The notes: generated by a model from the sequence alone, not told the origin. A stretch of DNA of 56,811 nt from a virus (IMGVR_UViG_2698536317_000003), one strand, 5' to 3'. Counted from the first letter of the stretch, positions 31,297 through 42,195 are shown. Made by a program: numbers and translations.

Positions 31297-31497
31297 TTAC
31301 TTGTTCCCCATTCGCGCGTCGTGTTCCTCTTGCGCTCGCTTGTTCTCCTGTGATTTAAAGTAATAATTAACGGCAAATGTGCCTACGGTTGATAAAATAC
31401 CCACAAAGACGGCAATGTCATTGATGGTTATCGCGCCGAAAAAAGCAGTTACGGCCCCAGTCACATACGCGCACGCCTCCCGTATTCTGTCGAACAT
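31297..31497 (-). CDS. Holin (small two-TM, pinholin-like)
   Basis: 66-aa ORF with two hydrophobic helices and charged C-terminus, immediately upstream of endolysin. Confidence 0.75.
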   Translation of the reverse strand: MFDRIREACAYVTGAVTAFFGAITINDIAVFVGILSTVGTFAVNYYFKSQENKRAQEEHDARMGNK

Positions 31498-31504
31498 AGA
31501 TTTT

Positions 31505-31540
31505 CCTCCAACAAAGCAAAAACCCGGCGCGGGGCCGGGT
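31505..31540 (-). terminator. Intrinsic terminator immediately upstream of holin RBS (tR-prime-like position)
   Basis: ACCCGGC-GCGGG-GCCGGGT hairpin followed on the minus strand by TTTTTGCTTTGTT. Confidence 0.55.
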
Positions 31541-31604
31541 AATTACAATTTCGCATTGTTAGGAAATATTTTAATCTGTTTGTTTGCGCTCTACAAATAC
31601 GGCG

Positions 31605-31832
31605 TTAACGATAAGGTCCAAGCAAACGAACAAGCCATTCTTTGTATTTGACGGCAACGTGTTTTGGTGCAAAATATCCTTGCACTTCCTTACCGCCTCG
31701 CCACTCCCTTCTAAATTCGCACTCGTTTTGATACTCCTTTCCGCTTTTACTATCCAGCCAGCAAGCAGGTGAGTAACCTTTTTCACTTCCGAACCGATGC
31801 CATATTGATGACAGTAAAACCCTTTCTTCCAT
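31605..31832 (-). CDS. Hypothetical protein (75 aa, Trp-rich, basic)
   Basis: ATG-initiated ORF upstream of holin terminator; overlaps alternative-frame ORF 31571-31786. Confidence 0.3.
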   Translation of the reverse strand: MEERVLLSSIWHRFGSEKGYSPACWLDSKSGKEYQNECEFRREWRGGKEVQGYFAPKHVAVKYKEWLVRLLGPYR

Positions 31833-32204
31833 ATTGCCCCCCCAACAAATACGGCTTTACGCTGTTCTGTATATCAGTCCGTTATCAAGCAATGTTTGCA
31901 TGTGTTCGCGATCCATGTCGCTTAATTCCCAATAAGGAACATCTTCATTCCTTATCATCACCTCTTCGCCTCTTACCAAATAGGCGATGTCAAATACCTT
32001 ATGCAAATAGATGCCATCTTCGATCTCGTTCATAGGTCGCTAGCCTTTACCAGTTCACCAGCATCAAGAAATATTTTAATTGTTTCTCGCGTCGTCTTAA
32101 TGATTGGCGCTACCCACTCGCCACCGCCAACGCGGATACGAATATCATCGCCTTCTACGCGGTAAAACAGCCTGTCGACTACTGTTGCTGCGTACACGCC
32201 ATCT

Positions 32205-32405
32205 TCAATCATTTTTGCGCTCCTTAATGGCTCGCATGATGTTAATACGCATAGCGTCACTGAATGCGTATATCGTAATGAAAGGCCAGAAGACTAGCTC
32301 GAACCAAATAATGCCGTCACTATCAACAGCTTTCTGAAAAGCGCCCATTAAAATGACACCAGCCAGGTAAATTATAACTACCGCAACAATAATGCATTCA
32401 ATCAT
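32205..32405 (-). CDS. Small membrane protein (MIECIIVAVVIIYLAGVILMGAF...), full-length copy
   Basis: Starts inside 227-bp duplication copy 1 and extends into unique sequence. Confidence 0.4.
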   Translation of the reverse strand: MIECIIVAVVIIYLAGVILMGAFQKAVDSDGIIWFELVFWPFITIYAFSDAMRINIMRAIKERKND

Positions 32406-32529
32406 CTTCACCCCCAAGATCATGATAAATATCGTTAGGGTCTTCACCATGTTCCTCGCAAAAACGCTCAAATAGCGCCCAATTTTCAGAAAGAAACATG
32501 ATTAATAAATTTTTATACCACTCTTCCAT
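32398..32529 (-). CDS. Acidic small protein MEEWYKN...GGEDD (43 aa), copy 1
   Basis: GAGGA RBS; identical copy at 32625-32756. Confidence 0.4.
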   Translation of the reverse strand: MEEWYKNLLIMFLSENWALFERFCEEHGEDPNDIYHDLGGEDD

Positions 32530-32539
32530 TTAATCATCC

Positions 32540-32632
32540 TCAGTCACTATCAACAGCTTTCTGAAAAGCGCCCATTAAAATGACACCAGCCAGGTAAATT
32601 ATAACTACCGCAACAATAATGCATTCAATCAT
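32540..32632 (-). CDS. Truncated small membrane peptide (30 aa) created by the duplication junction
   Basis: Same N-terminus as 32205-32405 ORF, stop created at repeat junction. Confidence 0.3.
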   Translation of the reverse strand: MIECIIVAVVIIYLAGVILMGAFQKAVDSD

Positions 32633-32756
32633 CTTCACCCCCAAGATCATGATAAATATCGTTAGGGTCTTCACCATGTTCCTCGCAAAAACGCTCAAAT
32701 AGCGCCCAATTTTCAGAAAGAAACATGATTAATAAATTTTTATACCACTCTTCCAT
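32625..32756 (-). CDS. Acidic small protein MEEWYKN...GGEDD (43 aa), copy 2
   Basis: Identical to copy 1; start abuts stop of upstream ORF. Confidence 0.4.
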   Translation of the reverse strand: MEEWYKNLLIMFLSENWALFERFCEEHGEDPNDIYHDLGGEDD

Positions 32757-33011
32757 TTAATCATCCTCATCGTCTTCATGTTCAGCCAGGAACTCATCAA
32801 CCACGCGGCAAGTCACTGGCGGGATGTATTCGAAATCATCAGAATCAAGATCAAGCGTCCGGCTGTCGCCGTCATCGTCCAGCGTATTCATCCCTAACTC
32901 ACCGAAAGGGCCATACCCAATATGGCCCAGGTATTCGCATCCAGTAGTAAAGCCAGGGTATTCGCCTTTGCACCAGATCTTGTATAGCTTACTTGATGCG
33001 CTCAATTTCAA
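32757..33011 (-). CDS. Hypothetical protein (84 aa, acidic C-terminus)
   Basis: ORF in small-gene block. Confidence 0.35.
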   Translation of the reverse strand: MKLSASSKLYKIWCKGEYPGFTTGCEYLGHIGYGPFGELGMNTLDDDGDSRTLDLDSDDFEYIPPVTCRVVDEFLAEHEDDEDD

Positions 33012-33312
33012 TTCCCCCTTCTACCCCTTCAGTCATTTTGTATTCCGCAAACAGTTCAGCGCCAAGTAATTCGACATCAGTATCACCAATACCAGGGAAC
33101 GCCAGATAAGCAAAAATAAGGCTTTTAATTCTATTCAGGTCTTCAAGATGGTCTGCATTAAAAGGCGGTTCAGTTACATGGAAGCATTTAACGTGCGCGT
33201 CGTCTTCAGTGGCTACACGGAAACATGCGCCAGGTTGTCCGGCGAATTGCCCTAATGTTTCCTTGCTCGGTAAAGTGCCACGAAAAACTTTAACGCTAAT
33301 AAATTTAGACAT
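32989..33312 (-). CDS. Hypothetical protein (107 aa)
   Basis: ORF in small-gene block. Confidence 0.35.
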   Translation of the reverse strand: MSKFISVKVFRGTLPSKETLGQFAGQPGACFRVATEDDAHVKCFHVTEPPFNADHLEDLNRIKSLIFAYLAFPGIGDTDVELLGAELFAEYKMTEGVEGGIEIERIK

Positions 33313-33315
33313 TTA

Positions 33316-33573
33316 TTATTCTCCTTCATAAAGAATTGCCACCAGTTCGGCATCTGTTAGCGTGTTGTGATCTTTATAAGTACCGTAGCGGGCAACGAAA
33401 GCTATTTCGCCAGCTATTTTCCGCCACATAGGGATAGACTCATTAAAATAGGTATTCTCCATTGCCTCCCTGTACGCCAGTTCATAAAAACGCCCGCTAT
33501 TTACATCTTCAATAACGCGGCTGTATGTGCCATCAACGCTACTAACGCCGCGCCACAGCCTGAACACAACCAT
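33316..33573 (-). CDS. Hypothetical protein (85 aa)
   Basis: ORF in small-gene block. Confidence 0.35.
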   Translation of the reverse strand: MVVFRLWRGVSSVDGTYSRVIEDVNSGRFYELAYREAMENTYFNESIPMWRKIAGEIAFVARYGTYKDHNTLTDAELVAILYEGE

Positions 33574-33575
33574 AA

Positions 33576-33875
33576 TTAAAACTCCGCACCAGGTAAGCTA
33601 CGCGCTTTATTTACAACATCTTGTTTTAACAATAATAGTGAGTGATAATGCATGTTAAACATTCTGCAAAGTGGTGTTTCACTATTTTCTGACTTAATTT
33701 TGAATAACTGGTTTGCAGTAAAAATCATGTCGTCGTCTGTTATGTATAACCAGTCGCCGCGCTTACCAACAACAATATGAGATTTTCCCCAGCTATCTTT
33801 AAATTCATAATTGCAGAAAACATCACCTTTAGGCACTTCAACAAAACAGCACGCTATGAATTTATCGCTTTTCAT
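33576..33875 (-). CDS. Hypothetical protein (99 aa)
   Basis: ORF in small-gene block. Confidence 0.35.
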   Translation of the reverse strand: MKSDKFIACCFVEVPKGDVFCNYEFKDSWGKSHIVVGKRGDWLYITDDDMIFTANQLFKIKSENSETPLCRMFNMHYHSLLLLKQDVVNKARSLPGAEF

Positions 33876-33917
33876 GATTCAACCCTTCTGGTTTGATGGG
33901 CCATCCGACCCCGTGCT

Positions 33918-34127
33918 TTATCCTTCTTTGCCTCCCTTGAACCCCAAACACTCCGCGTATTCGTCAATGCTTAATGCTTCTTCACCTGGTGCCAGTAGTT
34001 CGAAGTATCTGGCATATAACTCAAACACCCAGGCAGGATATTTTGCGTTTGCGTTCATCTTCTTGCCCCCCCATCCGTCTTTCTGTGGCTTATATATAAC
34101 AAAATGGCACTGCCGAAACAATGCCAT
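33918..34127 (-). CDS. Hypothetical protein (69 aa)
   Basis: Start ATG lies inside a CCATTTTGTATAC motif. Confidence 0.3.
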   Translation of the reverse strand: MALFRQCHFVIYKPQKDGWGGKKMNANAKYPAWVFELYARYFELLAPGEEALSIDEYAECLGFKGGKEG

Positions 34128-34174
34128 TTTGTATACATTGTGATACGAGTCACATTTTGCGCAATTAACTTTTA

Positions 34175-34441
34175 TCAGAAAGCCCCTTTATAATCGACCG
34201 TGTATTTTGCCACCAATTTCCATTCACAATAATTTTCCATGTCGCGCGGTTGCCAGCCTTTCATCCCGACAGCACTCCGCGCAGCGTGACGGCGACAATT
34301 GTCGTTAAGATCTACAACACACCACGGCTGAAGGATAAACATGTATTGCGCCTCGTTAACAAGGATCGCCATCTGCTTTCCTGTTGCCTTATCTTTCGCC
34401 CGGAAATAACTTACCCCGATTTTCATTTTTAATAACCTCAA
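34175..34441 (-). CDS. Hypothetical protein (88 aa)
   Basis: ORF in small-gene block. Confidence 0.35.
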   Translation of the reverse strand: MRLLKMKIGVSYFRAKDKATGKQMAILVNEAQYMFILQPWCVVDLNDNCRRHAARSAVGMKGWQPRDMENYCEWKLVAKYTVDYKGAF

Positions 34442-34637
34442 TCAACATTTCTTCTTCCAGGTTAGCCGGACGTTTACGAAATATCCCGGCAAAAACCAGA
34501 TCGTCGAGTAGGTCTTTACGCTTAAATAACCACTCCTTCATTATTACCCCGTCGTCGCTGCGATATACGACGCCGTTTTTCAGAAAATAAAAAGTACGGG
34601 TGTTTGTCTGGAGGTATAGATCTTCGTAAACGTCCAT
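34389..34637 (-). CDS. Hypothetical protein (82 aa)
   Basis: ORF in small-gene block. Confidence 0.3.
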   Translation of the reverse strand: MDVYEDLYLQTNTRTFYFLKNGVVYRSDDGVIMKEWLFKRKDLLDDLVFAGIFRKRPANLEEEMLIEVIKNENRGKLFPGER

Positions 34638-34641
34638 GATG

Positions 34642-34869
34642 TTAACCCTCGACTACTTCCAGCCCGCGACCCTTGTCGCCTACGAACTCTGCCAGGCTGA
34701 ATGTATACGACCACGCCGGATTTATGTGATGGTCATCAGCGCCAGCGGCAATTAGGTCAGCACCGTTAATCATGCAAGTGACACCATCGCTATGAACGAC
34801 GTTAACCACCTTACCAACAACCTGTTTCAGTGACGGATAACCGTGATCATGCAAGAATTTGACTTTCAT
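34642..34869 (-). CDS. Hypothetical protein (75 aa)
   Basis: ORF in small-gene block. Confidence 0.35.
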   Translation of the reverse strand: MKVKFLHDHGYPSLKQVVGKVVNVVHSDGVTCMINGADLIAAGADDHHINPAWSYTFSLAEFVGDKGRGLEVVEG

Positions 34870-34871
34870 CT

Positions 34872-35150
34872 TTACCTCTTATAAGTAACAGCATCAGAGA
34901 TCAATAACACCGCCAACATCTCACCGTTATGTAACGGATCTGGAATACCAAAAAATATATCGCTTTTACTGTCAGGCACTACTACGCACATATTGCCTTG
35001 TTTATCTTCATGTACAAACCACGGCTTTTCGTGTGGCTCAAACATTCCAAAAAGCAATTTAAGATCTATCTCTTCACCCTTCGTGAATAACGATACATCC
35101 GTTGTAGCGATAACTAACGCTTTCTGATCTGCTGTTTTCTTTGTTCTCAT
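34872..35150 (-). CDS. Hypothetical protein (92 aa)
   Basis: ORF in small-gene block. Confidence 0.35.
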   Translation of the reverse strand: MRTKKTADQKALVIATTDVSLFTKGEEIDLKLLFGMFEPHEKPWFVHEDKQGNMCVVVPDSKSDIFFGIPDPLHNGEMLAVLLISDAVTYKR

Positions 35151-35425
35151 TACTCTGTACCCCAGCGGTCTATGCTGATTAAAAAGTCACGGATAGCGCG
35201 GCGTTCGTCGCGCGTTGGCTTGCGCTTCCGGTAAATCTTGAAATCAAACCATTCTTTTTCTTGTTCGAAATCCAGGTCGTAAGCAAGTGCCTCAATGTAT
35301 CCGCACTCGTGATACTGGTACGCCACGCCAGCACGAACAAAAAAGCGGGTTTTATCCCGCTTGTGTTCATAGATACGCATATTCACCCCGTTAAGCAGTT
35401 GTGTAGCTGTCCACCAGCTTTTCAT
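35150..35425 (-). CDS. Hypothetical protein (91 aa)
   Basis: ORF in small-gene block. Confidence 0.35.
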   Translation of the reverse strand: MKSWWTATQLLNGVNMRIYEHKRDKTRFFVRAGVAYQYHECGYIEALAYDLDFEQEKEWFDFKIYRKRKPTRDERRAIRDFLISIDRWGTE

Positions 35426-35621
35426 CTTTCATTCTGGCAAGCTGGGCGATGTTCATCGTGTAGCCGCCATCGGAGAAAAGCCACTCTGCCGTCTTGCGAC
35501 GAAAAGAAATATCATCATAGTTGCGCGTCCATGTAGTGATCGCTACGCGTTTCCCATCAGTGGCGAACATAGATAACGCGTTATCAACTACGTCGATAGC
35601 CTGCCAGATTTTTAGATCCAT
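35391..35621 (-). CDS. Hypothetical protein (76 aa)
   Basis: ORF in small-gene block. Confidence 0.3.
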   Translation of the reverse strand: MDLKIWQAIDVVDNALSMFATDGKRVAITTWTRNYDDISFRRKTAEWLFSDGGYTMNIAQLARMKDEKLVDSYTTA

Positions 35622-35977
35622 GATTTATCCCCGTAAATTTTGAATAATTCCCGCGCTTCCTGATCTTCGAATAGCTTTATATGCAGATCATGCAGGCGGC
35701 GCATAGTGCGGAAGCGCGGTCTGAATTCCTGGTTTCTTTTAATGTACTTACCACCAATTGAATAAATATGACCGTATGCATACCATCTATTACCCACCCA
35801 AATTAGATATTCTTCACCCTCATAATTAAATCTGATTGTAAGCTCGTCAACCTCCATTATTAATCCTTTGTCGAGGATGTCGTTTAGCATATCATCCCAT
35901 TCTTTGAGAAACGGTCGTTGATACATACCGAAAATTGTATTTGCAGCGTGGCAAAGGTAATCAATGATTATCTGCAT
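35612..35977 (-). CDS. Hypothetical protein (121 aa)
   Basis: ORF in small-gene block. Confidence 0.35.
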   Translation of the reverse strand: MQIIIDYLCHAANTIFGMYQRPFLKEWDDMLNDILDKGLIMEVDELTIRFNYEGEEYLIWVGNRWYAYGHIYSIGGKYIKRNQEFRPRFRTMRRLHDLHIKLFEDQEARELFKIYGDKSWI

Positions 35978-35981
35978 ATTA

Positions 35982-36197
35982 TCACCACATCATATAGTAA
36001 ACGTTATCGTAAGCTAATTGATCCGCGTCTTCTTGCGTCATGTGCCGCGCTTCCAGAAAGAAATCTTCGTTATGCCATTCACTAACAAGCATTCGCGCCC
36101 ATTTGCGGCGCTGGCGCTTATTGCGTCGCAGATCATCAAAAGCCTTTAATGCTTTGTCGTATGCCCTTACAAGGCGTTTGCGGTTACTTTTCATCAT
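35982..36197 (-). CDS. Hypothetical protein (71 aa)
   Basis: ORF in small-gene block. Confidence 0.35.
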   Translation of the reverse strand: MMKSNRKRLVRAYDKALKAFDDLRRNKRQRRKWARMLVSEWHNEDFFLEARHMTQEDADQLAYDNVYYMMW

Positions 36198-36462
36198 TGT
36201 GATCCTTTAAACAGTCGTTATAGCCTTCAATGTATCCGGTTAATCCAGTGTTACTAACCGACCAGTCAGCCGAACGGCGCTTGATGGCCTTGTCCATAGT
36301 CATAGCATCAACCGGATCTGTTAAGTCTATATATTTCCGCAATTCCGTAACTATTACCGCCCTTAATTGTTGTGCATTTGAGTACGTCCTTGCTTTGTCA
36401 GTTATTCCGTTTACAAGCTCTCTAAATTCATGATCCTTTAATTTAGGCTTCATTATCGTCAC
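36184..36462 (-). CDS. Hypothetical protein (92 aa)
   Basis: ORF in small-gene block. Confidence 0.35.
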   Translation of the reverse strand: MTIMKPKLKDHEFRELVNGITDKARTYSNAQQLRAVIVTELRKYIDLTDPVDAMTMDKAIKRRSADWSVSNTGLTGYIEGYNDCLKDHNDEK

Positions 36463-36646
36463 CCCGCTTGTAAATTTTGACAGGCTTAATAGGTATGGCA
36501 GGTAATTCTCCCTCGTTTAATGCGCTTGCCATGCCCAATATTAAACGCGCTTCTGCACCAGTTACTTTTTTACACCATGCACCGCCCGTTTTATCTTCGA
36601 ACAAGATAACAGCAAACTGATCGTTTATTTCCAGCTTATCCATCAT
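36443..36646 (-). CDS. Hypothetical protein (67 aa)
   Basis: Overlaps stop of upstream Q-like gene. Confidence 0.35.
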   Translation of the reverse strand: MMDKLEINDQFAVILFEDKTGGAWCKKVTGAEARLILGMASALNEGELPAIPIKPVKIYKRGDDNEA

Positions 36647-37365
36647 TCACCCCGTGTAACTCGTTTAATTTCGTTATCAGCACGCGCCTCTTCTTTGAAC
36701 AATTCGGCAATGGCGTCTTCATAGAAAGCACGGTATTTCTTCCACCACGTTGATCGGCTTACCGGGAAAACAAGCTGATTAACCGCCTGCCGTACAAGAT
36801 CTACAGGGAAACGCGAGTACCCGCGCCCGCCGCAATGCTGGCACGTTTTGAACACTGGCATTTCCGCCGCTTCACTGGCTGCTTTATCCGGTACTTCGCC
36901 ACGGCCCTTGCATTGTTTACAATGATTGCGAACTGTCCCATGCCCCTTGCATTTTTTGCAAAGGTGTTTTTCTCCGTATTCGTCAAACGTAAATTTATAT
37001 CCGCCGCACTCCATACAAGTTTTTTCCGTCGCGGCGCTTTGGCAATAATCCCGAAACGCGAAAACGGCAACAAGAATAATGAGATCATTGCGTTTGGCCT
37101 CGTCCAGTTCCATAACGTATTCATAATCTTTTGCCATAGCCCTTAAACGCTCTGTAAGCAAAACTACGGCCTTATGTTTTTCGGCTTGTGATAGCTCCAT
37201 CTTTCCCAAAAAAGCGCTATAGCCAAGCTCTACGCGCGATTGCGCCATACCCGCAGCGGTTAGCGCATCCGTCGTATTAAGAGCTTCCGGGGACGTGCCC
37301 CGGCTTTCGTCAGATAATCGCGGTGATTTAGGAAAGTGGAATTTTAGAATGGATTCTAAATTCAT
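36643..37365 (-). CDS. Putative antitermination protein Q-like with four DnaJ-type CxxCxGxG zinc-finger repeats
   Basis: 240-aa ORF downstream of rusA; repeats CMECGGY, CKKCKGHG, CKQCKGRG, CQHCGGRG; assignment tentative. Confidence 0.4.
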   Translation of the reverse strand: MNLESILKFHFPKSPRLSDESRGTSPEALNTTDALTAAGMAQSRVELGYSAFLGKMELSQAEKHKAVVLLTERLRAMAKDYEYVMELDEAKRNDLIILVAVFAFRDYCQSAATEKTCMECGGYKFTFDEYGEKHLCKKCKGHGTVRNHCKQCKGRGEVPDKAASEAAEMPVFKTCQHCGGRGYSRFPVDLVRQAVNQLVFPVSRSTWWKKYRAFYEDAIAELFKEEARADNEIKRVTRGE

Positions 37366-37547
37366 TATTTGCCCTCATAACGTGCCGCCAGCCGTTTACG
37401 ATCAGAAATGGATTGCACCAGCTTTCTTTCGAACTCTTTCAGCGCAAGTAATTCGCGCATGTGGAAAGCCTGGATTTGTCGGACCGTCTCTAAATCACGC
37501 TCGTCGCGCTGAATATCTATTTGCAGATCTTTAACTTCGTTTTTCAT
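37365..37547 (-). CDS. Hypothetical coiled-coil protein (60 aa)
   Basis: ORF between rusA and Q-like gene. Confidence 0.3.
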   Translation of the reverse strand: MKNEVKDLQIDIQRDERDLETVRQIQAFHMRELLALKEFERKLVQSISDRKRLAARYEGK

Positions 37548-37951
37548 TGCTCACCCCACATATTAGTCGCGTATTCGTCAATATCCGGTAGTAGGTCGCC
37601 GCGTTCGCGGATCTTAATAAACAAGCGTCCGCCTTTTACCTTCCGGCAGCGAACAATTTTTATTGAGTCGATTTGCCCGTCATCCTTCCAGAATCCGGCA
37701 TAAGTAAGGCTGTCAAAAAGGCATTTAGGGATATTGTCCAGATCTCTGATCCGGTTATCCGGCGGCGCGGCGTAAATGGCAATTGCCAGTCGGCAAGGTA
37801 GGTTAATATTTAAATTTAATAGCTCGATGATGTCTCTTACCTGCTCCCTGTATTCTTTTCCAACCTTGCTGATATAGTGAAAACCTCGTGAATGTCGGTA
37901 ATAGCGGTTATTCGATGGCGGGTAAGGCAGGCTAAATGTATACTCGTTCAT
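37544..37951 (-). CDS. rusA: Holliday-junction resolvase RusA
   Basis: N-terminus MNEYTFSLPYPPSNNRYYRH and LDNIPK motif match recalled RusA. Confidence 0.85.
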   Translation of the reverse strand: MNEYTFSLPYPPSNNRYYRHSRGFHYISKVGKEYREQVRDIIELLNLNINLPCRLAIAIYAAPPDNRIRDLDNIPKCLFDSLTYAGFWKDDGQIDSIKIVRCRKVKGGRLFIKIRERGDLLPDIDEYATNMWGEQ

Positions 37952-37964
37952 GCCGCCTTTCTCC

Positions 37965-38441
37965 TTATTTTCCGTGATTTGGATGAAAACCATATTTAAT
38001 TTCAGCTTCTTGTCTCGCTTTGATTGCGTCCTCCATTCTGTCGAATCTGCCTAAAGTAATACATTTATAATTTACCCAAATTTGCGAATACCATTTCTTG
38101 CGCTCTTTATCCCAATAAACACCAATATAACCACTGGTATTGTTTTTGTTTTTTGGTCTATTCTTCGCGTTCTCCTTGCCTAACACCAATCTAAAATTAT
38201 TAAGCCTGTTATTGCTAGGGTCATGATCCAAATGATCTATCTCGTACCCTTCCGGGATTGGGCCGTTGTGCATTTCCCATATAATACGGTGCGCTTTATA
38301 CCATCTACCAAAAAGCCTAACGCGTATGCGACCAGTATCATTTGGACACCCAGCAATACTCCCGGCTTTCATTCTACCGCGTGACTTTTTCCATATCAGG
38401 TTAATACCATCGTAACAAAACCATTCGTGCCAGTTCATCAT
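37965..38441 (-). CDS. HNH homing-type endonuclease
   Basis: Motif HRIIWEMHNGPIPEGYEIDHLDHDPSNNRLNN plus AP2-like C-terminus; AT-richer than neighbours. Confidence 0.7.
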   Translation of the reverse strand: MMNWHEWFCYDGINLIWKKSRGRMKAGSIAGCPNDTGRIRVRLFGRWYKAHRIIWEMHNGPIPEGYEIDHLDHDPSNNRLNNFRLVLGKENAKNRPKNKNNTSGYIGVYWDKERKKWYSQIWVNYKCITLGRFDRMEDAIKARQEAEIKYGFHPNHGK

Positions 38442-38456
38442 GCAATACACTCCCAA

Positions 38457-39071
38457 TCATGCGCATTGCGCTCTCTCCTTCCTTAATGTGTCTAATTTAC
38501 GCTGATATATATTTATTATTTCTTTGCATTCTTCGATTGTCCATTTGTGAGTCTCGTTATTATTTTCTAATGCCTCCACCCTTTCTAATCCTATTTTTTT
38601 TATTAAATTTATTCTGTATAACTCAACATTGCCGTCCAATACCTGATTGCAATGTCGGCATTGTAGGTTTACGTTATCCTCGTTAAAGCGAAGGTGTCCG
38701 GCTGCCGCTACTGTGCGCCAGTGTCCAGCATCAGCGCCGCATTGTTCGTAATAATAAGTCCCGCACGATATACACGGCTGACCCGCGTCACGTTCGCGGA
38801 TATAGGCATTAAATACAGCTTGTGCCTGCTTTAACCAATAACTACGCGGATTTAACTGCTTCCGCTTCCGGTTGCGCTCTTCCCGCTGGCTATCACGGCG
38901 TCTCTTCCGCTCCATAGCCTTCATAGCCTTCTCACGGTCGCGGCATAGCTGATCAAACTTCAGCTCTTCCAGACATTCATCGCTGCACCATGTTTGATTG
39001 TGATATTTAGGCTCAAAAAAAACGCCGCAGCATTTGCAACGGCGTCTTATGGGTTTTTTAGGGTTCTGCAT
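38457..39071 (-). CDS. ninG: Recombination protein NinG
   Basis: Cys-rich motifs and C-terminal HKWTIEECK resemble recalled lambda NinG. Confidence 0.8.
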   Translation of the reverse strand: MQNPKKPIRRRCKCCGVFFEPKYHNQTWCSDECLEELKFDQLCRDREKAMKAMERKRRRDSQREERNRKRKQLNPRSYWLKQAQAVFNAYIRERDAGQPCISCGTYYYEQCGADAGHWRTVAAAGHLRFNEDNVNLQCRHCNQVLDGNVELYRINLIKKIGLERVEALENNNETHKWTIEECKEIINIYQRKLDTLRKERAQCA

Positions 39072-39085
39072 AAAAACCACCCCGA

Positions 39086-39262
39086 TTATTTTTGATTCTC
39101 TGTTTCGTTCAGCCTTTCGGCGTGTCCGGCCCTTAGCCAATGTTCTAAGCATTCGTTGCACTCGTTACAGCCTCCTTTCTTCGTGCTGCATACATTGCAC
39201 ATTGCACGCATGACGCTCTCTCGTTCATAGTCGTCATGCCATTGGTAATTATCAAAAGGCAT
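39086..39262 (-). CDS. NinF-like zinc-ribbon protein
   Basis: 58-aa ORF with CNVCS...CNECNEC Cys cluster. Confidence 0.4.
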   Translation of the reverse strand: MPFDNYQWHDDYERESVMRAMCNVCSTKKGGCNECNECLEHWLRAGHAERLNETENQK

Positions 39263-41720: not shown

Positions 41721-41972
41721 CTAGAAATAGTCCTGTTCCGTTCCCCAACGGTTGTTCAAATATCCCACCAACCAGATAAAACGCTCAATACTGATTAGTG
41801 GGGCGACCTTGCGATAATGCTTTTCTAATATCAGCCGCGTAGCTTTATCGCTGTAGCCGTTTCTTTCTACCTCCGCTTTGCAGGCAGAAAGCGCTGCGCG
41901 GGCGGCAGCTTTTACGGCATTAAATTGCAGTTCTGACATATTGAACAAAGCCATAGGATCACCATTCATCAC
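41721..41972 (-). CDS. Hypothetical protein (83 aa)
   Basis: ORF in early-left small-gene block. Confidence 0.35.
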   Translation of the reverse strand: MMNGDPMALFNMSELQFNAVKAAARAALSACKAEVERNGYSDKATRLILEKHYRKVAPLISIERFIWLVGYLNNRWGTEQDYF

Positions 41973-42195
41973 CCCAATCAGGCGCTACAGTCCAGCAAAA
42001 ACCAATGAATGCGCTAACAGCCAATAAAGCGCGGGCTGCAAAAAGAATATTCCCAATGTCGTTAAATTCAGGCAGCGACCACGTAATAAACATATCCCCC
42101 AGCATGATAACACCGATAACAGTCAGGGCCGCCAGGAAAACAAAAAGCGTAGCCAAAAGCCACACCCCCAACCAGTTAAAAAAGCTCTTAACCAT
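41959..42195 (-). CDS. Small two-TM membrane protein (78 aa)
   Basis: Two hydrophobic helices. Confidence 0.4.
   Translation of the reverse strand: MVKSFFNWLGVWLLATLFVFLAALTVIGVIMLGDMFITWSLPEFNDIGNILFAARALLAVSAFIGFCWTVAPDWGDEW

What the first reader, a model, noticed from the sequence alone, without database searches (positions are those of the whole stretch)
31571..36646. Five-kb block of about 20 small unknown ORFs between the Q-like gene and the lysis cassette
Instead of a short Q to late-promoter to holin interval, roughly 5 kb of tightly packed, often overlapping minus-strand ORFs of 43-121 aa lies here. None shows a motif I can assign. In lambdoid phages this interval is a classic cargo site (for example toxin genes), and dense small-ORF blocks in temperate phages are enriched for anti-defence and host-takeover functions.
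Basis: partly seen in the sequence, partly recalled or inferred. Interest (0 to 1): 0.5.

Follow-up and report, generated by a model that had tools for sequence, protein, structure and literature searches.

The report
Small-gene array between Q and late promoter
The 5-kb stretch is a real, tightly packed array of about 20 small phage genes of unknown function that all relatives of coliphage mEp021 carry in variable form, and it appears to lie upstream of the late promoter rather than being toxin-type cargo behind it.

Summary
Between the Q gene (36643-37365, minus strand) and the holin (31297-31497) lie 22 minus-strand ORFs of 43-121 aa: 20 distinct genes, one exact duplicate and one truncated duplicate. 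They cover 96% of the DNA, show dN/dS of 0.04-0.5, and 18 of 20 match PHROG families of unknown function. The window is an mEp021-like (mEpimmI) E. coli prophage. In 58 related genomes the same interval is 2.0-6.8 kb and holds 8-27 genes, drawn from about 26 recurrent families in one colinear order.

No ORF matches Pfam, NCBIfam or PADLOC. The one usable structure model has no fold match. Nothing toxin-like or recognisably anti-defence was found.

The interpretation needs correcting. The only conserved non-coding DNA is a ~100-bp module directly before the holin: TAAAAT, 7 nt, AACAAT, then a strong terminator. It has the layout of the Q-dependent late promoters of lambda, P22, SF10, SfV and HK225, and this Q is a lambda-Q homologue. 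So the array most likely lies between Q and the late promoter and is co-transcribed with Q as delayed-early genes, like a nin region placed after Q. Homologues of one gene sit in early operons of other phages. This is ordinary accessory content in an unusual position, and transcription was not measured.

The parts
36643..37365 (-). Q antiterminator. It is a lambda-Q homologue with a 31-aa insert carrying two extra CxxC pairs.
   Evidence: Pfam PF03589, E=1.7e-29. Matches PDB 7ubm (lambda Q) at E=1.5e-38. 34% identical to lambda Q over the full length.
36443..36646 (-). o01, 67 aa. Its start overlaps the Q stop codon (ATGA).
   Evidence: phrog_35000, E=5e-40. dN/dS 0.15. Present in 44 of 52 distinct versions of the interval.
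36184..36453 (-). o02, 89 aa. Its N-terminal 30-aa motif is shared with several other PHROG families.
   Evidence: phrog_29262, E=1e-51. dN/dS 0.28.
35982..36197 (-). o03, 71 aa, basic (pI 9.8).
   Evidence: phrog_8758, E=2e-26. Homologues at 53-54% identity in Sasha-like siphophages.
35612..35977 (-). o04, 121 aa, with an invariant RPRFRTMRRL motif.
35391..35621 (-). o05, 76 aa, a core gene.
   Evidence: phrog_38280. Present in 52 of 52 versions. dN/dS 0.18.
35150..35425 (-). o06, 76-91 aa, a core gene. It contains a terminator-like hairpin at 35362-35343.
   Evidence: phrog_30442. Hairpin found. The hairpin sequence is identical in 55 of 60 sequences, and one genome carries a compensatory synonymous change.
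34872..35150 (-). o07, 92 aa, a flexible gene.
   Evidence: phrog_33175. Present in 27 of 52 versions.
34642..34869 (-). o08, 75 aa.
   Evidence: phrog_5009. Homologues at 40-42% identity in about 119 phage records of roughly 130-140 kb, most of them E. coli phages, some named rV5.
34389..34637 (-). o09, 82 aa, a core gene. It is the orthologue of mEp021_41, annotated 'virion structural protein'.
   Evidence: 95% identical to mEp021_41. Detected by mass spectrometry in CsCl-purified virions (PMC11893012). Found in E. coli only. AlphaFold2 model pLDDT 57, not usable.
34175..34426 (-). o10, 83 aa, basic, a core gene.
   Evidence: phrog_38609. Present in 52 of 52 versions.
33918..34058 (-). o11, 46 aa. 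The longer 69-aa reading of this ORF is unlikely.
   Evidence: phrog_22232 matches only residues 24-68. dN/dS 0.08.
33576..33875 (-). o12, 99 aa.
   Evidence: No PHROG match. Found only in mEp-group phages. dN/dS 0.24.
33316..33573 (-). o13, 85 aa.
   Evidence: phrog_32200.
32989..33312 (-). o14, 107 aa, acidic.
   Evidence: phrog_23107. No PDB sequence match.
32757..33011 (-). o15, about 82 aa, very acidic (net charge -15). The start codon is uncertain.
   Evidence: phrog_25234. Charge.
32316..32769 (-). Exact 227-bp tandem duplication. It carries two copies of the 43-aa acidic gene (32625-32756 and 32398-32529) and a truncated copy of o19 (32540-32698).
   Evidence: Duplication found. The 99.8%-identical E. 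coli MIN12 prophage region is 219 bp shorter here (5,182 versus 5,401 bp) and annotates a single 43-aa gene.
32205..32471 (-). o19, a small membrane protein of 66-88 aa. The start codon is uncertain.
   Evidence: phrog_10061. Maximum hydropathy 2.9.
32030..32212 (-). o20, 60 aa, a paralogue of o21.
   Evidence: Both o20 and o21 match phrog_15318. In the stricter clustering this family occurs twice in most of the 52 interval versions.
31857..32033 (-). o21, 58 aa, a paralogue of o20.
   Evidence: phrog_15318.
31605..31832 (-). o22, 75 aa, the last gene of the array. It is a flexible gene.
   Evidence: phrog_23715, E=2e-55. dN/dS 0.04, against 0.71 for the overlapping alternative frame.
31555..31596 (-). 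Proposed late promoter PR' and qut site. Elements: -35 TTGTAG (31596-31591), a 17-nt spacer, -10 TAAAAT (31573-31568), 7 nt, then the pause-type element AACAAT (31560-31555). The predicted transcription start is near 31560.
   Evidence: Sequence read. GATTAAAAT and CTAACAATGCGAAA are invariant in all 58 genomes. Lambda, P22, SF10, SfV and HK225 have the same layout. Function is inferred, not shown.
31516..31540 (-). Intrinsic terminator (proposed tR'), ACCCGGC-CCCGC-GCCGGGT followed by a T-run. It lies about 20 nt before the holin ATG.
   Evidence: Terminator scan. RNA fold z-score -4.8. The stem is constant and the loop varies across genomes. Annotated as TERM_5 in mEp021.
31297..31497 (-). 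Holin, the first gene of the lysis and late operon.
   Evidence: Pfam PF16080, E=1.6e-14.

Best explanation
The block is the accessory small-gene array characteristic of the mEp021-like (mEpimmI) temperate coliphages. It contains about 20 translationally coupled genes, drawn from a pool of about 26 recurrent families that always appear in the same order. A small core is present in every genome; the rest come and go through deletion and duplication.

The array sits between the Q gene and a compact late-promoter, pause-site and terminator module that abuts the holin. It is therefore most likely transcribed together with ninF, ninG, rusA and Q from the early rightward promoter, by RNA polymerase modified by the phage's N-like antiterminator Gp17. 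That would make its genes delayed-early genes. In effect it would be a nin-type region placed after Q rather than before it.

Q made from that transcript would then act at the module, letting polymerase that starts there pass the terminator into the holin and late genes.

Shown here:
- the anatomy of the region;
- that the ORFs are coding;
- the colinear presence/absence polymorphism;
- conservation of the module and its architecture.

Inferred:
- the transcription start;
- Q action at this site;
- early timing;
- any protein function. The guess is host-takeover, anti-defence or DNA/RNA-handling modulators.
For: Identity and coding status:
- The region is 85-99.8% identical to mEp phages and to E. 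coli prophages.
- Every ORF has dN/dS of 0.04-0.5, and 18 of 20 match PHROG families.

Polymorphism:
- In 58 genomes the interval is 2,003-6,801 bp, in 52 distinct versions with 8-27 ORFs in one colinear order.

The module:
- About 100 bp before the holin is nearly invariant, whichever gene precedes it.
- DNA just after Q is variable coding sequence, with no conserved non-coding element.
- This Q is a lambda-Q homologue.
- Lambda-family late promoters share the layout of a -10 hexamer, 6-7 nt, AACGAT, then (in P22, SfV and HK225, shortly after) a terminator. This is seen in lambda, P22 (with annotated start site, qut and terminator), SF10, SfV and HK225.
- The module reads TAAAAT, 7 nt, AACAAT, then a terminator. 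It is the only exact match to that pattern in the window, and no site with up to 2 mismatches lies between 31574 and 38592.
- The module occurs only in mEp-like contigs, always directly before this holin.

Other support:
- Promoter-like sites inside the array are no more frequent than chance: 15 found against 13.5 expected.
- o04 homologues sit in early operons elsewhere: between the replication genes and Q in phage Edno5, and between cox/dam and gpA in P2-like prophages.
Against: - There are no transcript data, so the start site and Q dependence are untested.
- The -35 is weak (TTGTAG or TTGTGG). In 13 of 58 genomes the -35 region is replaced by unrelated sequence (ATAATCGCG...).
- The pause element differs from AACGAT by one base.
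- The terminator hairpin begins only about 21 nt after the predicted start. That is closer than in P22, where it begins about 31 nt after the start.
- A promoter hidden inside the conserved 3' part of the Q coding sequence cannot be excluded.
- One array product (the o09 orthologue) was reported in purified virions. That would fit late expression better, although an early protein (Ssb) was found in the same preparation (PMC11893012).
- No function could be assigned to any gene.
Confidence: 0.65

Rival explanations
1. This is the first reader's framing: late-operon cargo. The late promoter lies next to Q, as in lambda. The 5-kb array is then transcribed by Q-modified polymerase ahead of the lysis genes, in the position stx occupies in Shiga-toxin phages. 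The hairpin before the holin is simply the distal terminator.
For: - In the lambda-family relatives where a late promoter or its motif was found (lambda, P22, SF10, SfV, HK225), it starts within about 45-110 bp of the Q stop.
- The o09 orthologue was found in virions (PMC11893012).
- Both terminator-like hairpins would be read through by Q-modified polymerase just as well.
Against: - o01 overlaps the Q stop codon, so there is no intergenic space at that end.
- The sequence after Q is variable.
- No promoter-like site was found on the minus strand from 36000 to 37600.
- The -10 plus AACNAT signature is absent there and present only before the holin.
- About 45 nt upstream of the terminator hairpin are invariant in 58 genomes. 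A terminator-only role does not explain this.
Confidence: 0.15
2. The array is a battery of anti-defence or host-takeover proteins. This concerns protein function and is compatible with either transcription model.
For: - The genes are small and fast-turning-over, and are shared patchily with unrelated phages: a large group of 130-140 kb E. coli phages, Sasha-like phages, P2-like prophages and Edno5.
- Several products are very acidic, with net charge -15 and -11.
- The predicted expression is early.
Against: - No homology to any characterised protein was found: Pfam, NCBIfam and PADLOC gave nothing, and PHROG matches are all to families of unknown function.
- There is no fold match for o04.
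- No dedicated anti-defence profile library was available.
- A core of 5-7 genes is fixed in all relatives, which suggests a housekeeping or regulatory role for those genes.
Confidence: 0.35
3. Most of these ORFs are not genes. They are chance ORFs or decaying remnants in a non-essential spacer.
For: - The ORFs are very short.
- RefSeq leaves some of them unannotated.
- One alternative-frame ORF listed by the ORF finder is indeed spurious.
Against: - dN/dS is 0.04-0.5 for all 22 ORFs.
- PHROG matches are strong for 18 of 20, against 0 of 6 control ORFs.
- Junctions are typical of translational coupling.
- Coding density is 96%.
Confidence: 0.02

Closest known systems
Q-to-holin region of phage mEp021 and the mEpimmI group (MH706966; PP180001-5; PMC11893012)
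   Same: Orthologous locus with the same flanks (Q, terminator, holin). The window's o05, o06, o08, o09, o10, o12, o13 and o21 correspond to mEp021_38 to mEp021_45. The paper notes that variable genes are concentrated in the regulation cluster.
   Different: mEp021 has the minimal version of 8 genes in 2.0 kb. The window has 22 ORFs in 5.1 kb, plus a private 227-bp duplication. In the text searches made here, the paper does not discuss this array, a late promoter or a qut site.
Lambda nin region (delayed-early accessory genes between P and Q)
   Same: A dense run of small, individually dispensable genes in the early rightward operon, containing terminators and dependent on N-type antitermination. 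It shows presence/absence variation among relatives.
   Different: The lambda nin region lies upstream of Q, whereas this array lies downstream of Q. No array gene matches a Pfam Nin family. The true nin homologues (ninF-like, ninG, rusA) are upstream of Q in this window.
Cargo region between PR'/tR' and the holin in lambdoid phages (stx in Shiga-toxin phages; single ORFs in HK225, SF10 and Eho49)
   Same: Accessory DNA located between Q and the lysis genes.
   Different: In those phages the cargo lies downstream of the late promoter and terminator and is under Q control. Here the promoter-like module and terminator abut the holin and the genes lie upstream of them. No toxin homology was found.
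P22 P-late / qut / t-late (annotated in AF527608)
   Same: Q of the lambda family. The -10 hexamer is followed after 6 nt by AACGAT at the start site, and the terminator ends about 59 nt after the start. The leader is similarly compact.
   Different: The P22 module starts 43 bp after gene 23 (its Q). The mEp module is 5.07 kb from Q in this window. The P22 holin follows about 300 bp after the terminator; here it follows after about 20 nt.

Membership tests
Lambda-type Q-dependent late transcription unit (Q + PR'/qut + tR') | An antiterminator homologous to lambda Q. | tested here: met
   PF03589, E=1.7e-29. Matches 7ubm, 4mo1 and 7ubj. 34% identical to lambda Q over the full length.
Lambda-type Q-dependent late transcription unit (Q + PR'/qut + tR') | A promoter -10 hexamer followed after 6-7 nt by a -10-like sigma-70 pause element (AACGAT) at the transcription start. 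| tested here: met
   The window reads TAAAAT, 7 nt, AACAAT (one substitution) at 31573-31555. This is invariant in 58 genomes. The same layout is seen in lambda, P22, SF10, SfV and HK225. The role of AACGAT as a pause element is from established knowledge of lambda PR', not tested here.
Lambda-type Q-dependent late transcription unit (Q + PR'/qut + tR') | An intrinsic terminator shortly downstream of the start site. | tested here: met
   A hairpin of 7 bp (6 G-C pairs) plus a T-run at 31540-31516. The fold z-score is -4.8.
Lambda-type Q-dependent late transcription unit (Q + PR'/qut + tR') | The promoter lies immediately downstream of the Q gene. | tested here: not met
   The module lies within about 45-110 bp of Q in lambda, P22, SF10, SfV and HK225. 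It is about 5.07 kb from Q in this window, and the Q-to-holin interval is 2.0-6.8 kb across the group.
Lambda-type Q-dependent late transcription unit (Q + PR'/qut + tR') | Q-dependent read-through of the terminator, and a Q-binding element. | not testable with these tools
   This needs reporter or in-vitro transcription assays. The conserved stretch AAACAAACAGAT upstream of the -10 is only a candidate Q-binding element.
Late-operon cargo / moron between PR' and the lysis genes | The genes lie downstream of the late promoter and its terminator. | tested here: not met
   Only about 20 nt, including the ribosome-binding site, separate the terminator from the holin ATG. All array genes lie upstream of the module.
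Late-operon cargo / moron between PR' and the lysis genes | Marks of foreign origin: deviant composition, its own promoter and terminator, sporadic presence. | tested here: not met
   G+C is 0.42-0.45 against about 0.46 for the phage. Promoter-like sites are at the chance level. The colinear array is present in all 58 relatives.
Late-operon cargo / moron between PR' and the lysis genes | Homology to a toxin or virulence factor. | tested here: not met
   Pfam, NCBIfam, PADLOC and PHROGs gave no such match.
nin-type delayed-early accessory region | Same strand as the early rightward operon and contiguous with it, with no intervening promoter gap. | tested here: met
   ninF-like, ninG, rusA, a 60-aa ORF, Q and o01 onward all lie on the minus strand with overlapping or abutting junctions. 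Actual co-transcription was not tested.
nin-type delayed-early accessory region | Located between the replication genes and Q. | tested here: not met
   The array lies downstream of Q.
nin-type delayed-early accessory region | Individually dispensable genes with deletion variants among relatives. | tested here: met
   There are 52 distinct versions with 8-27 genes, and mEp021 is viable with 8.
Known anti-defence proteins | Sequence or fold homology to a characterised anti-defence protein. | tested here: inconclusive
Virion structural proteins | The product is part of the virion and has a structural role. | not testable with these tools
   Only o09 qualifies, as a 95% orthologue of mEp021_41, which was detected by mass spectrometry (PMC11893012). 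A profile search of PDB sequences found nothing, including RegA. The model was too poor to compare folds.

The most novel reading that the evidence does not exclude
Two linked readings remain open.

1. In this phage lineage Q and its qut/late promoter have been pulled 2-7 kb apart by an expanding accessory-gene array. The late leader has shrunk to about 44 nt. The array is then a Q-co-expressed delayed-early module.

2. The array encodes several uncharacterised host-takeover or anti-defence proteins. Candidates are two strongly acidic proteins that might act as DNA mimics, the o04 family with its invariant RPRFRTMRRL motif that recurs in early operons of unrelated phages, and o09, which is packaged in virions and could be delivered with the DNA.
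Probability: 0.3. Interest if true: 0.55.

Novelty: new member of a known kind. Interest (0 to 1): 0.3.

Why it matters
mEp021-like phages were reported to be as common as lambdoid phages in a collection of coliphages isolated from human faeces (PMC11893012). About a tenth of their genome is this array of unknown genes.

Knowing that the array probably belongs to the delayed-early class says when and how to look for function. The genes would be co-expressed with Q, repressed in the lysogen, and not under Q control. That points to the period early after induction or infection, not to toxin release at lysis.

The colinear presence/absence pattern gives a ready list of core genes (o05, o06, o09, o10, with o04 and o08 nearly so) and dispensable ones for deletion studies. 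The compact promoter, pause-site and terminator module is a convenient natural test case for how close a terminator can lie to a Q-loading site.

None of this overturns current understanding.

Tried and rejected
- **Family scans.** Pfam, NCBIfam and PADLOC scans of all ORFs gave nothing. PHROG matches were only to unknown-function families.
- **PDB sequence searches.** Searches for o02, o04 and o14, and profile searches for o04 and o09, gave nothing significant.
- **Structure of o09.** The model was too poor (pLDDT 57) to test the published RegA/YorC similarity.
- **RNA features.** Rfam and tRNA scans of the region were negative. There are no tRNA genes of the kind found next to stx.
- **Ipe.** I tested whether the published haemolysis-inducing Ipe protein of mEp021 is encoded in the array. 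No array ORF has its pattern of in-frame starts at 83/82/77/72 aa. The only such ORF in the window is at 41721-41984, in the early region.
- **boxB-like hairpin.** A possible hairpin ACAAU-GCGAA-AUUGU in the leader was rejected, because about half of the genomes break the stem.
- **Co-variation of Q with the module.** The Q allele class does not co-vary with the -35-region variant of the module.
- **Module adjacent to Q.** A search of IMG/VR for the module placed next to Q in other phages found only mEp-like contigs and chance hits in coding sequence.
- **Literature.** I therefore could not confirm that its experimentally shown terminator 't5' is the pre-holin terminator.

Full report
**What is there**

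On the minus strand the window reads ninG (38457-39161), an HNH/AP2 endonuclease gene (37965-38456), rusA (37544-37993), a 60-aa ORF and Q (36643-37365). These are followed by 22 closely packed ORFs of 43-121 aa down to 31605, a strong intrinsic terminator (31540-31516), then the holin (31297-31497), lysozyme and Rz/Rz1. Junctions between the small ORFs are mostly -4 to +4 nt, and most starts have Shine-Dalgarno-like sequences. The ORFs cover 96% of 31605-36646. One correction applies: the low end, 31571, belongs to a spurious alternative-frame ORF.

**Are they genes?**

- Pooled pairwise dN/dS against orthologues in 13 related genomes is 0.04-0.50 for every ORF.
- The overlapping pair at the low end separates cleanly: 31605-31832 gives 0.04 and 31571-31786 gives 0.71.
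- Eighteen of 20 distinct ORFs match a PHROG family, with E-values between 1e-15 and 1e-59, and all of these families are of unknown function.
- As a control, five opposite-strand ORFs and the alternative-frame ORF match nothing.
- ORF 33918-34127 is supported only over its last 46 codons.

**Where the window comes from**

The region is 99.8% identical to a prophage of E. coli MIN12 and 85-95% identical to 34 other E. coli chromosomes. It is 86-89% identical to phages mEp010, mEp013, mEp021, mEp044, mEp515, mEp554 and MagusPhagus. These phages form the mEpimmI group, described as Nus-dependent, non-lambdoid temperate coliphages that are common in the human gut (PMC11893012). That paper notes that variable genes are concentrated in the regulation cluster. 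In the text searches I ran, it does not discuss this interval, a late promoter or a qut site.

**Comparative anatomy**

I compared 14 annotated genomes and 44 IMG/VR contigs retrieved with the Q protein.

- The distance from the Q stop to the holin ATG ranges from 2,003 bp (mEp021, 8 genes) to 6,801 bp, with a median of about 5.5 kb. The window's interval is 5,145 bp.
- There are 52 distinct versions of the interval. They hold 8-27 ORFs from about 26 recurrent families plus rare variants. The families always appear in the same order.
- Three families (o05, o09, o10) are in all 52 versions. o04 and o06 are in 51, and o03 and the o20/o21 family are in 50.
- Identity to the window varies independently from gene to gene, between 45% and 100%, which indicates mosaic recombination.
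- Some families occur two or three times per genome. These are o20/o21 (both phrog_15318), o03, and a family absent from the window. Repeats of this kind offer substrates for the deletions and duplications that would create the polymorphism.
- The window carries a fresh example: an exact 227-bp tandem duplication (32316-32542 and 32543-32769). The MIN12 region is 219 bp shorter and annotates a single 43-aa gene there.
- G+C of the array (0.42-0.45) does not stand out from the rest of the phage.

The array is therefore a lineage-conserved, internally plastic part of the genome and not an inserted island.

**Function of the proteins**

No function could be assigned to any of them.

- Pfam gave no hit at E<=0.01, and NCBIfam and PADLOC gave no hits.
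- PDB sequence and profile searches were negative.
- o09 is 95% identical to mEp021_41. The mEpimmI paper detected that protein by mass spectrometry in CsCl-purified virions and likened it, using a language-model search, to the translational repressor RegA. A profile search did not recover RegA, and the model was too poor to compare folds (pLDDT 57).
- Descriptively, o15 and the duplicated 43-aa protein are very acidic (net charge -15 and -11). o03, o06, o10 and o22 are basic. o19 is a small membrane protein.
- The haemolysis-inducing Ipe protein of mEp021 is not encoded in the array.

**Where the late promoter is**

- o01 overlaps the Q stop codon. The DNA after Q is variable coding sequence, with column entropy of 0.5-0.9 against 0.1-0.2 in the 3' part of Q. 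The minus strand from 36000 to 37600 has no promoter-like site.
- By contrast, the ~100 bp immediately before the holin are nearly invariant in all 58 genomes, although at least three unrelated sequences lie upstream of it.
- The module reads TTGTAG, 17 nt, TAAAAT, ATTTCCT, AACAAT, GCGAAATTGTAATT, ACCCGGC-CCCGC-GCCGGGT, TTTTGC, then the ribosome-binding site and the ATG.
- The stretches GATTAAAAT and CTAACAATGCGAAA never vary. The terminator stem is constant while its loop varies.
- This Q is a lambda-Q homologue: E=1.5e-38 to PDB 7ubm, and 34% identity over the full length with a 31-aa insert carrying two extra CxxC pairs.
- In lambda, the annotated P22 late promoter, SF10, SfV and HK225, the sequence after Q shows a -10 hexamer, 6-7 nt and then AACGAT. 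In P22, SfV and HK225 an intrinsic terminator follows within about 30-55 nt of the predicted start.
- In P22 the annotated start is the first A of AACGAT, and the terminator ends at about +59.
- From established work on lambda PR', AACGAT is the -10-like element that causes the sigma-70-dependent pause at which Q loads. This comes from my own knowledge and was not tested here.
- The mEp module has the same architecture with one substitution (AACAAT).
- It is the only exact match to TAAAAT-N7-AACAAT in the 56.8-kb window. No site with up to two mismatches lies between it and position 38592.
- In IMG/VR the module occurs only in mEp-like contigs and always directly before this holin.

I therefore place PR'/qut at 31596-31555, the start near 31560 and tR' at 31540-31516, giving a leader of about 44 nt.

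Weak points of this assignment:
- The -35 is poor, and it is replaced by unrelated sequence in 13 of 58 genomes.
- The hairpin begins only about 21 nt from the predicted start.
- There are no transcript data.

**Consequence for the array**

If the module is the late promoter, the array lies between Q and PR'. With no intergenic gaps from ninG through Q to o22, and with promoter-like sites at the chance level (15 found against 13.5 expected), the simplest reading is co-transcription with Q. Transcription would start at the early rightward promoter and depend on the N-like antiterminator Gp17, whose nutR2 site lies upstream of the nin genes according to PMC11893012. These would be delayed-early genes, repressed in the lysogen.

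A terminator-like hairpin inside the core gene o06 (35362-35343) has the same sequence in 55 of 60 sequences. In one genome it carries a compensatory pair of synonymous changes. Like the terminators of the lambda nin region, it would make downstream expression depend on antitermination.

Independent support comes from gene context elsewhere. In the lambdoid Edwardsiella phage Edno5, the o04 homologue lies between the replication genes and Q. In P2-like prophages of Salmonella and Enterobacter, it lies in the early operon between cox/dam and gpA. o08 has relatives at 40-42% identity in about 119 phage records of roughly 130-140 kb, mostly E. coli phages, and o03 has relatives in Sasha-like phages. 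This fits promiscuous small accessory genes.

**Comparison with what is known**

- The array works like a nin-type region: dense, dispensable, terminator-containing delayed-early genes. It fails the positional criterion because it is downstream of Q, and it has no Nin-family homology.
- It is not in the cargo position of Shiga-toxin phages. That position is downstream of PR'/tR', and here it is only about 20 nt long.
- The Q/PR'/tR' system meets the sequence criteria of the lambda family, except that Q and the promoter are not adjacent.

**Verdict**

The feature is real and well delimited, and it is already present in published genomes, annotated as hypothetical proteins. Its gene content is ordinary accessory material of unknown function, with no toxin or known anti-defence signal. 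The modestly new point is regulatory topology. A 2-7 kb accessory array separates Q from a very compact late promoter and terminator, so the array is predicted to be early and not Q-controlled cargo. Confidence in that model is about 0.65. Interest is low to moderate.

Noticed in passing
window 32316-32769: An exact 227-bp tandem duplication (100% identical copies). It is not a multiple of 3. It duplicates a 43-aa acidic gene and creates a truncated copy of the neighbouring membrane-protein gene. The 99.8%-identical MIN12 prophage region is 219 bp shorter here and annotates only one 43-aa gene. It is either a very recent event or an assembly artefact.
   Followed up: partly
window 37965-38456 (minus strand): A free-standing HNH_3 + AP2 endonuclease gene (Pfam E=5e-20 and 1.5e-6), probably a homing endonuclease. 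It sits on a ~512-bp insertion between ninG and rusA relative to mEp021, where the two genes abut.
   Followed up: partly
window 35343-35362 (minus strand), inside gene o06: A terminator-like hairpin with a T-run inside a core coding gene. Its sequence is identical in 55 of 60 related sequences. One genome has a compensatory synonymous change (G to C paired with C to G) that keeps the stem. The orthologous gene in mEp554 carries an annotated predicted terminator, T9.
   Followed up: partly
window 41721-41984 (minus strand): The only ORF in the window with in-frame start codons giving 83, 82, 77 and 72 aa. This is the pattern reported for ORF-4/Ipe, the haemolysis-inducing protein of mEp021 (PMC6379469). 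It lies in the early region, outside the array, and matches phrog_303 of unknown function.
   Followed up: partly
window 36643-37365 (Q), residues 117-147: Relative to lambda Q, this Q carries a 31-aa insert with two extra CxxC pairs, probably an additional zinc-binding element. Pfam shows a weak DnaJ_CXXCXGXG match.
   Followed up: no
window 35612-35977 (o04) and homologues P0053-P0097: The family has an invariant arginine-rich motif, RPRFRTMRRL, at the start of a long C-terminal helix. It also has the invariant residues D6, Y7, H10, N13, T14, W27, D28, W60 and N63. This suggests a specific binding function, but there is no fold match.
   Followed up: partly
window 37300-37967 versus L003 (MIN12): The array is 99.8% identical to MIN12, but the adjacent 5' part of Q, the 60-aa ORF and rusA are only 87.6% identical. 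A recombination junction therefore lies within or near Q.
   Followed up: no
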